51,950 bases of DNA from a virus (taxonomy: Duplodnaviria; Heunggongvirae; Uroviricota; Caudoviricetes), in the IMG/VR virus record IMGVR_UViG_2909303794_000011, positions 1-51,950 of that record; one strand, 5' to 3'. A program made the position numbers. Within the stretch, counting starts at the first letter, position 1, and each line of letters begins with the position of its first letter. This document shows positions 39,001 through 42,000 of the stretch, in pieces.

Positions 39001-42000
39001 ACTGGCTTTGAAGTACGGGTCCTCGCGTCTGGCTGCAGATACCGCAGGAACTTCCCAGGATTCTTCGAAATGACGATCCGGACCAAAGAACGTGACAGCC
39101 TGTTTCACAAATTGTGTGCCGCTGTTACCCATCGCAGATACCCAGCCCGCGTAGCGTTTCACACCTTCCAGCATGGTTTCGGGTTTTACCCCCTCATTCA
39201 AACGGGCTTTCCAAGCTTTGAAGGCTGCAGATTTTGAATTGCCACCAGCACGTTTGGGATAGGCCAGCCATGCCTGCTCAAACTCCGGAGAGTATTCCGG
39301 TCGGTTTGAACGAACTCGCACGGACTCATCAACTGATGCACCAACAGCTATTGGTTCATTGACTGGTTCTTTGACTGGTTCAAAAGAGTGACTGGTTCTG
39401 GGTGAATCTCCTGCACTACCCCCTGGTGCAACTCCTGCACTACCTGGTGAATTTGCTGCACCAGATAGTGAATTATTTGCACTACCCCCTAGTGAATCTC
39501 CTGCACCATCCAGATGAAGGAGATAGATATTACTTGAGTTACCTTTTTCACCTTTCCGGGTGACTTTTTTTACCAGCCCGGACTCACAAAGGGCCGCAAT
39601 ATGATTCATCACAGAACGTTTGCTAATCTCGCACTGGTCAGCAATATGCTGGTAGCTGGGCCAGCACTCACCCTGATCACTGGCATTATCAGCCAGCTTG
39701 ATCAGAACCAGTTTTCGCAATGGATTACCCACTCGAATTTTCATCGCTTTAACCATCAGCTCCATACTCATGCTGCACCTCCGAGATGCTTCATGTTTTT
39801 TCCGGAGCGAAAGGCTATAAGCGGCATACTGACGCGGTAATTACGGCCCAGCGGTTCACAAATCACCTTCTGACATTCACGGTCAACCAGGCTAACACGT
39901 AGAACATGCCCTGCAGGCGTGGTGTACCACTGACCCGGACGAGGACAACGGAAAGTCTGATTGGTAAAACGTTTGAAAATATTCCGGATCATTTGCGCCC
40001 CCTTACCTCTGAAGGGTTCAGCGACAAATTTATGAGGCAGGCCAGCGCCGAAGCATCATTAATATAGTCATATAAGCTAACAGCCAGCGGAGATTCGGCT
40101 TTTGCCAACATAGGATAAAGCTGCTGCAGCCAGACCTGATGAATTGATGAAATGTAGGAACAGAGAACGCTGGCGTTATGTGCAACGTCGCTCGGTACAG
40201 CGGGCTTTGAAAGCTGTTTCTCCATCTGGTTAAAGGCATTGATGTATGCCTCTTTGAACTGGGCAGCACGTTTACCCGTGAAACCCATAGCAAGAAACGC
40301 AAAGCCGTCGCGGGTTATTTGATAGCAAGGTAGTTTGCGGCCTGAAGCGTCGGTATAACCACTTAACACAAAATTGTGTTCAGCAAATTCAGCGGAGCAT
40401 TCAAGGTTTCGAATTCTATCTAAAACCCGCTCATGCCGTTTAGTAAAGTAGTTAGCAACTGCAAGAGATGTAGTGACAGCACGACCATTGATGATCGTGA
40501 TTTCAGGGTGAACAAAGGTTGGGATCGTAGCCATAATGGCAGCCTCGGTAGCAAGCTTAAAAAACTCACCACATAAGACGCCAATCATAGAGGTGGTGAG
40601 ACGTACAGAGTTGGCGTTACCGGCGGCTACCCTTACCGGCGCATCTTGCGATGCCCCTGTACGCCCCACCATAATTTGGGCGTGACAAAATAATGCGTAC
40701 AAAAAAACCGCATCTACGCGGTTGTACGCGGTAGCCTTCTCCAGGACGCCAATCCCGGCACCCGCTTTATAAGGTGCCTGAACAGTGTAACGTCCCGGAA
40801 TGGCAGAATCAATGTGCTGGTGGTCCTTCACACTCAACAAAATCACGCCTGAATTTCCACAAAGGACTAAAGCACTCATGCGGGTAGTCTTTGCGAAGAT
40901 AGATAACGCGCTGTGTTTCTGGCTCCCAACGAATAACATGGACATAAAGCCCTCTTCCGTCACGAAACCAGCGGTTAAGTTCCTGCACAACTCGCCCCCC
41001 ACAGTCAGGTAAAGTTCTCTGTGGTTACTTACAGCCAGGTGATTTGGTAATCTGCATTCATGCCGTAACAACAGGTGTTCAGCGACGCTGACCACCAGCT
41101 GTTGCGACAAACGGTTATTTGCCGTTAAACTGTTCATGCGTTAGTTTCTCCACAGACACAAAACGCCACGACGCCCGGAGCTGCACACTCGCGGGCGTCA
41201 CTCTTTTCTGGAGCGCAGAAAATTTTGTAGACCAGTGCCGCATGCTCCTGGAGCTTCGAAATTGACAGATACAATTCATCATTAATTGCTGTCTGCTCGT
41301 GTGGCTCCACTACCCCATCTTCGATTGCCGAACGAATCTGCTTTGAGTAACTCCCGATCTGTTCGATGACTTCCAGCAGGCGCTGGTTTATATCTGCGTT
41401 CTCTACTTCCTCAATTTCAGGAAGCGATACAAACACCCCACCAGCAGACTGTGCGACAGCATCCGCAATGTAGTGAGTGCCAGCAGCACGCTGTAAAATC
41501 ATTGCCCATCCCAGCGGGAAAATCTGATCGCCATCTGCACGAAGGCGGTTGAATAAAGCGTTCTCTGTAACATCCAGCCACTCAGCAGCTTCAGCGTAAC
41601 CCCCTGGCAACGCCGCGATGGTTTTTCTGACAGCTTTCACGTACCACTCAGGCTGTTTTTCCACTTTCCAGTGATGATTACCCACGGCTTACCTCCTGTT
41701 CCTGTGGTTTAAACCCATTCTGGTTTTGGCTAGATTGAAAACGTGCCGGATAAAGAATCTGCATTTCGCTGATTTCACCCTTAAAAAAATTGGCCAGACG
41801 TTCTGCAAGATCGATAGATGGAATTTGTTCCAGTCTTTCAATACGACTCAGCGTCGCTGGATTGACCTGAACGCCAGCAGCAACATGCTGCAAAGTAAGT
41901 CCGTGCGCCTTACGCACATTCCGTAATGGTGATTGCATATAACCTCCACATATTGCGTGATGAGCATATTATTTCACGCAAATATTTTGCGCAAGTTGAT

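What the first reader, a model, noticed from the sequence alone, without database searches (positions are those of the whole stretch)
39355..39515. Two families of direct repeats inside the replication initiator gene: likely origin iterons
Five ~22-bp repeats and three TTGACTGGTTC repeats lie within the O-like gene. The repeated DNA is translated as a Gly/Ser/Ala-rich linker (GGSANNSLSGAANSPGSAG...). This mirrors lambda, where ori iterons are embedded in O and bound by the O protein's own N-terminal domain.
Basis: partly seen in the sequence, partly recalled or inferred. Interest (0 to 1): 0.45.

Follow-up and report, generated by a model that had tools for sequence, protein, structure and literature searches.

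The report
Replication origin inside phage initiator gene
The two repeat sets are real DNA signals, almost certainly the prophage's replication origin, embedded in the linker-coding part of its own initiator gene; one set is tuned to the initiator's DNA-reading helix, and the other is a nearly invariant 10-base motif shared by related prophages from E. coli to Pseudomonas and Vibrio.

Summary
Five 15-bp dyad repeats (GTGAATCTCCTGCAC type, spaced 24/21/21/24) and three exact TGACTGGTTC copies lie in gene 38953-39771 (-). This gene encodes a 272-aa winged-helix (Pfam HTH_36) phage initiator, 98-99% identical to SfV orf39 and mEp460 gp43.

Both repeat sets are constrained as DNA, not as peptide. 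In 52 non-redundant relatives found through the N-terminal protein only, the 10-mer GAACCAGTCA is read in all three frames. Its codons never vary (Arg AGA 46/46). Half of the genes carry iterons in more than one frame.

Iteron half-sites covary with the recognition helix across six classes. The 10-mer stays constant across all classes and across seven unrelated C-terminal domains.

Repeat copy number varies among near-identical E. coli prophages: 1-9 iterons and 2-4 ten-mers. Both arrays encode a predicted disordered linker.

Best reading: a lambda-like origin inside the initiator gene. The iterons are bound by the initiator. The invariant ~12-bp-period repeats next to them are the unwinding or second-contact element. 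The module has no helicase loader.

Function is inferred, not tested. I found no description of the conserved 10-mer element.

The parts
38953..39771 (-). Replication initiator gene, 272 aa. It is an initiator-only module: no helicase or helicase-loader gene lies between cro and Q.
   Evidence: ORF. Pfam HTH_36 at 44.1 bits against a cutoff of 25, and phrog_270 'replication initiation protein' at E=2e-88. It is 98-99% identical in nucleotides to SfV orf39, mEp460 gp43 and Stx2c phages. The neighbouring genes are PerC-like, LexA-DBD-like, RusA, KilA-N, DUF968 and Q, with no DnaB, DnaC or P.
39508..39771 (-). Coding region of the N-terminal winged-helix DNA-binding domain (aa 1-88). The recognition helix is aa 51-64.
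   Evidence: AF2 model: pLDDT 79-93, helices 3-11, 17-28, 40-47 and 51-64, and a beta-hairpin wing at 67-85. Foldseek gives generic winged-helix matches, including DnaD-N 2v79.
39492..39506 (-). Iteron 1, nearest the N-domain coding part. Sense sequence GTGCAGGAGATTCAC.
39468..39482 (-). Iteron 2. Sense sequence GTGCAAATAATTCAC; the centre is diverged but both half-sites are kept.
39447..39461 (-). Iteron 3. Sense sequence GTGCAGCAAATTCAC.
39426..39440 (-). Iteron 4. Sense sequence GTGCAGGAGTTGCAC, a perfect GTGCA/TGCAC dyad.
39402..39416 (-). Iteron 5, the last one. Across the whole family it lies exactly 2 nt from the first 10-mer.
39389..39398 (-). 10-mer copy 1, GAACCAGTCA in sense. Read in the frame (A)GA ACC AGT CA(C) = R-T-S-H.
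39372..39381 (-). 10-mer copy 2, read as GAA CCA GTC A = E-P-V-(K). This is a different reading frame from copy 1.
39360..39369 (-). 10-mer copy 3, read as E-P-V-(N), 12 bp after copy 2.
39348..39357 (-). Degenerate fourth copy, GAACCAATAG (7/10), 12 bp further on.
   Evidence: Read directly; TRF reports period 12 with 2.6 copies.
38956..39339 (-). Coding region of the C-terminal domain (aa 145-272). This domain is exchangeable: it occurs in only 10 of 90 related loci. It ends in a DnaT-like tail, SQIPAGFRG.
   Evidence: helices 162-214 in the AF2 model

Best explanation
This is the prophage's replication origin, embedded in the part of the initiator gene that encodes a disordered linker between its two domains.

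1. Dimers of the initiator's N-terminal winged-helix domain bind the five 15-bp dyad iterons GTG(A/C)A-N5-T(G/T)CAC, spaced 21-24 bp apart (about two helical turns). This is inferred from the covariation between recognition helix and half-site.

2. Two bases after the last iteron begins a second element: (A)GAACCAGTCA(C), repeated 3-4 times at 17- and 12-bp spacing. It is invariant across the whole initiator family. I read it as the place where the bound array opens the duplex or makes a second, class-independent contact. That would make it the counterpart of lambda's AT-rich region, the oriC/RK2 13-mers, or the DnaA-trio next to a DnaA box. It is most likely contacted by the invariant part of the N-domain. 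This step is inference.

3. The exchangeable C-terminal domain then brings in the host helicase. In this phage no P, DnaC or DnaB gene is present, and the protein ends in the tail motif of host DnaT. Recruitment of host DnaB-DnaC or restart-primosome components is therefore plausible but speculative.

What is shown: the repeats exist; they are constrained as DNA; the iterons covary with the helix; copy number is polymorphic; the N-domain, iterons and 10-mers travel together as one cassette.

What is inferred: binding, unwinding and origin activity.
For: - Identity: the gene is a phage replication initiator by family.
- Unbiased comparison set: 80 genome loci were found with N-terminal peptide patterns only. 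After de-duplication at <85% nt identity, 53 of 55 genes carry CCCAGAAYCAGTCAC-TCTNNN-GAAYCAGTCA at about nt 340-450.
- Information content is 1.6-2.0 bits per position across AGAACCAGTCACTCT. Third positions of conserved residues in the N-domain of the same genes average 0.54 bits.
- Codons never vary: AGA 46/46, AGT 46/46, TCT 45/45, ACC 34/34, GAA 45/45, GTC 41/42. Invariant Arg columns of the N-domain use all six Arg codons, and GC3 spans 0.29-0.88.
- The 10-mer is read as RTSH, EPV and NQS. 44 of 52 genes, including the window's, read copies in more than one frame. 25 of 52 genes have iterons in more than one frame, with spacings of 23+22.
- Each recognition-helix class maps to one iteron class across different genera, six classes in all.
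- Proteins 95-100% identical differ only in repeat number: 1-9 iterons and 2-4 ten-mers.
- Both arrays encode aa 89-141, within the segment with pLDDT<50.
- The 10-mer zone is on average the least stable 30-nt window of the gene, z=1.69.
- The cassette is fused to at least 7 unrelated C-domains. The flanking genes are not conserved.
- A gene in an E. coli Stx1a-converting phage has the same C-domain but an unrelated N-domain. It carries different 12-bp-period repeats (CAGAGAATACNN x4) at the same place and no GAACCAGTCA.
- Viable phages (SfV, mEp460, Ayreon, cdtI) carry this gene as their only recognisable replication gene.
Against: - There is no experimental datum for this family. PMC12315714 states that initiator-only lambdoid phages have not been studied.
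- In the window itself the 10-mer zone is only moderately AT-rich (GC 0.425). A second, lower-GC zone lies on the other side of the iterons (39520-39559, GC 0.375). Where unwinding occurs is therefore open.
- The binder of the 10-mer is unknown.
- The comparison suggesting N-domain-specific 12-mers rests on one contrasting family.
- Related sequences are not independent, even after de-duplication.
Confidence: 0.75

Rival explanations
1. The repeats are only slippage-generated coding repeats of a flexible Gly/Ser/Ala/Pro linker, with no function as DNA.
For: In the window all iteron periods are multiples of 3 and give a repetitive peptide. The region is predicted disordered. Copy number varies, as in slippage-prone tracts.
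Against: The same 10-mer is conserved in three reading frames with no synonymous change. In 25 of 52 relatives the iterons sit in different frames (spacings 23+22). The half-sites covary with the recognition helix.
Confidence: 0.03
2. The iterons are true initiator binding sites, but their main role is regulatory, for example autoregulation by roadblock, copy control by handcuffing, or exclusion of related phages. The origin itself would lie elsewhere.
For: Iterons in plasmids also mediate copy control. An extra iteron-like site lies 600 bp away in the next gene and is kept in close relatives.
Against: No other repeat cluster or conserved non-coding element accompanies the initiator across the family. 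Only the N-domain, iterons and 10-mers are constant. The architecture and position match lambda-type origins (PMC7466680).
Confidence: 0.1
3. The invariant 10-mer repeats are binding sites for a conserved host factor of Gammaproteobacteria rather than for the initiator.
For: The motif does not change with recognition-helix class or with the host's GC content. That is what a host-protein site would show.
Against: No match to the DnaA box lies within the gene. By eye there is no IHF consensus. There are no GATC sites. An E. coli phage initiator with a different N-domain but the same C-domain uses different 12-mers, which points to the N-domain rather than the host.
Confidence: 0.12
4. The conserved block is a recombination joint (module boundary) kept because it allows N- and C-domain shuffling. 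Alternatively, it acts in the mRNA.
For: At least 7 unrelated C-domains are joined immediately 3' of the block.
Against: About 40 bp of identity cannot be maintained by recombination alone when the flanks differ, so selection on the sequence itself is needed. There is no significant RNA or ssDNA structure (z about -0.8), no Rfam hit and no promoter-like site. The joint is more simply a by-product of a conserved origin element.
Confidence: 0.05

Closest known systems
Lambda ori / O protein, and the six-iteron origins of Stx phages P27 and 933W (PMC7466680)
   Same: The origin lies inside the initiator gene, between the DNA-binding N-domain and the partner-binding C-domain. There are several dyad-symmetric iterons about two helical turns apart. 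An easily opened region lies on the C-terminal side. Extra iterons lengthen the protein. The gene sits in the pR operon after cII.
   Different: The N-domain is Pfam HTH_36, not Phage_rep_O. The iteron sequence is unrelated. Lambda's AT-rich tract is replaced by sequence-specific 10-mer repeats of only about 42% GC. No P gene is present.
13-mer repeats of oriC and RK2 oriV, and the DnaA-box + DnaA-trio basal unwinding system (from general knowledge, not tested here)
   Same: Short direct repeats of about one helical turn lie directly next to the initiator's double-strand sites. Here the distance from the last site is fixed (2 nt in all lineages).
   Different: The repeats are not strongly AT-rich. 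They lie inside a coding region. The initiator is a phage winged-helix protein. Neither ssDNA binding nor unwinding has been shown.
Initiator-only ('O homolog only') lambdoid phages such as LLS (PMC12315714)
   Same: The module has one initiator gene and no helicase or loader. The early-left genes are yfbR/yfdQ-like. Chi sites are strongly over-represented in the window (16 against 2.2 expected).
   Different: That paper does not describe an origin. It states that replication of this phage type is not understood.
Origins inside rep genes of Gram-positive phages (SPP1 oriL in gene 38, TP901-1, Tuc2009; from general knowledge)
   Same: Repeats bound by the initiator lie within its own gene.
   Different: The proteins, repeats and hosts are unrelated.

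Membership tests
Lambda-type origin (ori inside gene O) | Repeats lie inside the initiator ORF, in the inter-domain linker | tested here: met
   The arrays occupy aa 89-141, between the winged-helix domain (aa 1-88) and the C-domain helices (162-214); pLDDT<50 over aa 91-158.
Lambda-type origin (ori inside gene O) | Four or more dyad-symmetric iterons about two helical turns apart | tested here: met
   Five copies with a 15-bp GTGMA-N5-TKCAC core, spaced 24/21/21/24.
Lambda-type origin (ori inside gene O) | Initiator N-domain homologous to lambda O (Pfam Phage_rep_O) | tested here: not met
   The Pfam scan gives HTH_36 and a sub-threshold DnaD_N hit only; no Phage_rep_O at E<=0.01.
Lambda-type origin (ori inside gene O) | AT-rich unwinding region next to the iterons | tested here: inconclusive
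   The 10-mer zone is the least stable 30-nt window on family average (z 1.69). In the window it has GC 0.425, and a second low-GC zone flanks the other side.
Lambda-type origin (ori inside gene O) | Partner helicase loader (P) encoded next to O | tested here: not met
   No P, DnaC or DnaB-like gene lies between cro and Q.
Lambda-type origin (ori inside gene O) | Initiator binds the iterons, and the fragment supports replication | not testable with these tools
   Indirect evidence only: the recognition helix covaries with the half-sites.
Iteron-type origins in general | Site sequence co-evolves with the initiator's DNA-reading surface | tested here: met
   Six helix classes each map to one iteron class across genera.
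Iteron-type origins in general | DnaA box(es) near the iterons | tested here: not met
   No TTATCCACA match with up to 1 mismatch lies within 38953-39771.
HTH_36 / phrog_270 phage initiators (SfV orf39, ST64B sb42, mEp460 gp43) | Sequence membership | tested here: met
   HTH_36 at 44.1 bits against a cutoff of 25; phrog_270 at E 2e-88; 99.6% aa identity to SfV orf39.
Purely coding tandem repeat (linker low complexity) | Conservation at peptide level only, with repeats always in one frame and synonymous sites free to vary | tested here: not met
   Copies are read in three frames, synonymous variation is zero, and spacings of 23+22 occur.

The most novel reading that the evidence does not exclude
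The invariant (A)GAACCAGTCA repeats, placed exactly 2 nt after the last iteron, may be a family-wide unwinding and helicase-entry signal. They would be read, probably as single-stranded DNA, by the invariant face of the winged-helix initiator. That would be a phage counterpart of the DnaA-box + DnaA-trio unwinding system. Together with a DnaT-like C-terminal tail, it would explain how 'initiator-only' lambdoid phages start replication without a helicase loader of their own.
Probability: 0.3. Interest if true: 0.7.

Novelty: new variant of a known kind. Interest (0 to 1): 0.52.

Why it matters
Initiator-only lambdoid phages include Stx2c-converting phages, SfV, ST64B and prophages in about half of complete E. 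coli genomes. The literature describes their replication as not understood.

This analysis gives a precise origin map. It gives a recognition code (helix class to iteron class) that can be tested by swapping. It also identifies a roughly 40-bp element that is conserved as DNA from Enterobacterales to Pseudomonas, Shewanella, Vibrio and Pasteurellaceae.

These results make the initiation mechanism directly testable. They provide a sequence signature for annotating origins in thousands of prophages. Because replication drives Shiga-toxin gene dosage after induction, the origin is also relevant to virulence.

Tried and rejected
- Internal sigma-70 promoter in the repeat region: none found. TTGACT resembles a -35 box, but no -10 follows.
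- Structured RNA or ssDNA hairpin: z-scores -0.81 and -0.86, and no Rfam hit in the gene.
- DnaA box: none in the gene. IHF consensus and GATC sites were checked by eye only; neither was found.
- Sequence search of the PDB with the whole protein: only spurious low-complexity hits. Pfam and NCBIfam gave nothing for the C-domain.
- The upstream 74-aa ORF or the downstream PerC-like gene as family-wide partners that could bind the 10-mer: each is present in only 4 of 90 related loci.
- Literature: full-text searches for the 10-mer in either orientation returned only unrelated primer and miRNA papers. Searches on SfV, ST64B and mEp460 origins found nothing on this origin.
- The Weigel & Seitz 2006 review, which may catalogue such modules, is not held.
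- The 120 viral contigs found with the DNA pattern were not used for conservation statistics, because they were selected on the motif itself. They were used only for iteron and helix analysis.
- Plasmid records with this N-domain are phage-sized circles. I did not count them as evidence of plasmid-type maintenance.

Full report
**What is there.** The finding lies in a minus-strand gene, 38953-39771, encoding a 272-aa protein. Its first 88 residues match Pfam HTH_36 above threshold. The whole protein matches PHROG 270 'replication initiation protein' at E=2e-88. It is 98-99% identical in nucleotides to the replication gene of SfV (orf39), mEp460, Ayreon, cdtI and the Stx2c-converting phages. 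Matching DNA occurs in 2717 of 5426 complete E. coli genomes, and in 896 of them over at least 80% of the gene. The gene sits in a lambdoid early-right operon: cI, cro-like, CII-like, Rha/Ash region, a 74-aa ORF, the initiator, PerC-like, LexA-DBD-like, RusA, KilA-N, DUF968 and Q. No helicase or helicase-loader gene is present. That is the 'O homolog only' arrangement. A 2025 paper reports it in 34 of 314 lambdoid phages and calls it experimentally unstudied (PMC12315714).

**The observation.** Both repeat families are real and not due to chance.
- Five copies of a 15-bp core start at 39402, 39426, 39447, 39468 and 39492. The spacing is 24, 21, 21, 24.
- With up to 2 mismatches the core has 5 hits in the window against 0.14 expected.
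- In the gene's sense strand the core reads GTG(C/A)A-N5-T(T/G)CAC. This is a dyad, perfect in one copy.
- TGACTGGTTC occurs three times exactly, at 39360, 39372 and 39389, and nowhere else in 52 kb. A degenerate fourth copy lies 12 bp further on.
- An AlphaFold2 model built on 22 homologues gives a confident winged-helix domain (aa 1-88), a segment with pLDDT<50 over aa 91-158, and a helical C-domain. Both arrays (aa 89-141) therefore encode a probably disordered linker.

**DNA or peptide?** This was the key question, because in the window the iteron periods are multiples of three and give a repetitive peptide. I collected relatives in a way that cannot bias the answer. Eighty genome loci were found with two peptide patterns from the N-domain only. 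They come from prophages of Pseudomonas, Marinomonas, Shewanella, Aeromonas, Xenorhabdus, Providencia, Aliivibrio, Avibacterium, Microbulbifer and others. Six phages found by tblastn were added. I then de-duplicated at <85% nucleotide identity in the N-domain.
- In 53 of 55 genes the DNA CCCAGAAYCAGTCAC-TCTNNN-GAAYCAGTCA follows the last iteron.
- Information content is 1.6-2.0 bits per position over AGAACCAGTCACTCT, third codon positions included. At third positions of >=90%-conserved residues in the N-domain of the same genes it averages 0.54 bits.
- Codon use is fixed: Arg AGA 46/46, Ser AGT 46/46, Ser TCT 45/45, Thr ACC 34/34, Glu GAA 45/45, Val GTC 41/42. Invariant Arg columns of the N-domain use all six codons, and GC3 ranges from 0.29 to 0.88.
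- The same 10-mer is translated in all three frames. It reads RTSH for copy 1 and EPV for copies 2-3, including in the window itself. It reads PEPV for copy 1 in some Shewanella, RTSH-RTSQ-EPV in Aliivibrio, and NQS in Avibacterium.
- 44 of 52 genes read copies in more than one frame. It also survives in frameshifted pseudogenes.
- The iterons behave the same way. Spacings such as 23+22 put copies in different frames in 25 of 52 genes.

Both families are therefore constrained as nucleic acid. There is no significant RNA or ssDNA fold, no Rfam hit and no promoter-like site, so the constraint is most simply on duplex DNA as a protein-binding or unwinding element.

**Two different kinds of element.** The 15-bp iterons differ between lineages, and they do so together with the start of the recognition helix (aa 50-57).

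| Recognition helix | Iteron |
|---|---|
| S[KRE]RS[VA][MIQ]xH | GTG(A/C)A-N5-T(G/T)CAC |
| SKRSVMRH / DKRTAMRH | GTGA(C/T)-N5-GTCAC |
| S[KRH][ST][AS]VRxH | TGCC(A/G)-N5-TG(G/A)CA |
| [GS]RSTVKxH | GGGCA-GGAGC-TGCCC |
| DRSTVR[KR]H | GTAGGCC..AGCAC |
| SRKTAIGH | GTGTA-N5-TACAC |

Each pairing is seen in more than one genus where it was sampled. This is the signature of an initiator reading its own iterons, and the dyad symmetry suggests dimers, as for lambda O.

The 10-mer is the same in all six classes. It always starts 2 nt after the last iteron. It travels with the N-domain whatever follows: at least seven unrelated C-terminal domains are fused directly 3' of it. Neither the neighbouring genes nor the window's own C-domain are family-wide.

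A gene in an E. coli Stx1a-converting phage offers a contrast. It has the same C-domain family but an unrelated N-domain. It has no GAACCAGTCA, but it carries four 12-bp-period repeats (CAGAGAATACNN) at the equivalent position. This single contrast suggests the ~12-bp repeats belong to the N-domain family rather than to the host or the C-domain.

In one Shewanella gene both copies have changed in concert to GAATCTATCA.

**Polymorphism.** Among E. coli and Shigella proteins 95-100% identical to the window's, lengths run from 242 to 302 aa. Every difference maps to the arrays: 1 to 9 iterons and 2 to 4 ten/12-mers (phages cdtI, PhiR63_1 and Stx2c_EH0474). This matches the 4-versus-6-iteron variation described for lambda and Stx phages, where extra iterons lengthen O (PMC7466680).

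**Mechanism proposed.**
- Initiator dimers occupy the iteron array.
- The adjacent invariant repeats serve as the unwinding region, a second class-independent contact, or both.
- The C-domain recruits the host helicase.

Positional homology with lambda (N-domain, iterons, easily melted region, C-domain) supports this. So does the finding that the 10-mer zone is on average the least stable 30-nt stretch of these genes (z=1.69). In the window itself, however, the zone is only 42.5% GC, and a second low-GC zone lies on the other side of the iterons, so the unwinding site is not settled.

The protein's last nine residues, SQIPAGFRG, match the flexible C-terminal tail of E. coli DnaT (SQIPPGFRG, 8/9). 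A review describes that tail as flexible (PMC5778457). This hints at a shared docking partner in the DnaB-loading machinery, but it is only a hint.

**Comparison and novelty.** The feature works like the lambda origin-in-O arrangement and like iteron origins in general. It is not a member of the lambda O family: there is no Phage_rep_O match, the iterons are unrelated, there is no P gene, and there is no DnaA box. Public records of SfV and mEp460 annotate no origin here. I found no paper describing these iterons or the conserved 10-mer. I could not read the Weigel & Seitz 2006 review, which may list such modules.

I therefore class this as a new variant of a known kind. The origin-in-gene principle is classical. 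The undescribed parts are the frame-independent, near-invariant 10-mer element at a fixed distance from class-specific iterons, and the helix-iteron code.

**Limits.** All functional statements are inferences from sequence comparison. Relatives are not phylogenetically independent. The contrast that assigns the 12-mers to the N-domain rests on one family.

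Noticed in passing
window 38956-38982 (-): The initiator's last nine residues, SQIPAGFRG, match the C-terminal tail of E. coli primosomal protein DnaT (SQIPPGFRG, 8/9). ST64B keeps the motif (SQIPTGFRG). Relatives with other C-domains lack it. It may be a shared docking motif for the host helicase-loading machinery.
   Followed up: partly
window 24352-45513: There are sixteen Chi sites (GCTGGTGG) against 2.2 expected, 13 of them on the minus strand. One (39242-39249) lies inside the initiator gene. This fits the 'no Rec module, Chi-rich, O-only' class of lambdoid phages described in PMC12315714.
   Followed up: partly
window 40589-40676 (-) and 40701-40777 (-): Rfam finds a C4 antisense RNA and an isrK Hfq-binding RNA inside the mechanically listed 382-aa ORF 39989-41137 (Ash + Rha domains). 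The real antirepressor gene is probably shorter and preceded by a P1/P7-type c4-like immunity RNA.
   Followed up: no
window 29907-30023 (+), ORF 29952-30839 (+): An ALIL pseudoknot, the frameshift signal of IS3-family transposases (120.9 bits), indicates an insertion sequence inside the prophage.
   Followed up: no
window 38785-38799 (+): A sixth iteron-like 15-mer, GTGTATCTCCTTCAC (13/15), lies about 600 bp from the array, inside the PerC-like gene. Its half-sites are kept in mEp460, SfV, PhiR63_1 and Stx2c_EH0474 but not in ST64B. It could be an auxiliary site or chance (expected 0.14 such hits per window).
   Followed up: partly
window 46717-50544 (-): A 1275-aa protein with a SIR2-like domain lies near the integrase end of the prophage. 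It is possibly an anti-phage defence gene carried as a moron.
   Followed up: no
L211 2451-2498 (Stx1a-converting phage Stx1_699, O gene): An initiator with an unrelated N-domain (no Pfam hit) but the same C-domain family has GGGAAAC-type repeats followed by four 12-bp-period repeats, CAGAGAATACNN, directly before the C-domain junction. The two-tier repeat architecture recurs with different sequences.
   Followed up: partly
L192 nt 385-420 of the gene (Shewanella profunda prophage): Both 10-mer copies read GAATCTATCA instead of GAACCAGTCA, a concerted change of two copies. L201, which has the same C-domain type, shows a partial version.
   Followed up: no
L150, L181, L067, L184: Frameshifted or truncated copies of the initiator gene. 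L150, L181 and L067 still carry an intact iteron/10-mer block; L184 (an ORF of 7 codons) was not examined for the block. They may be decaying prophages or sequencing errors.
   Followed up: no
one search hits H180-H197: Phage-sized (28-54 kb) circular 'plasmid' records from E. coli, Salmonella, Klebsiella, Shewanella, Pasteurella, Microbulbifer and many from Arsenophonus nasoniae encode this N-domain. They are probably excised or extrachromosomal phage genomes.
   Followed up: no
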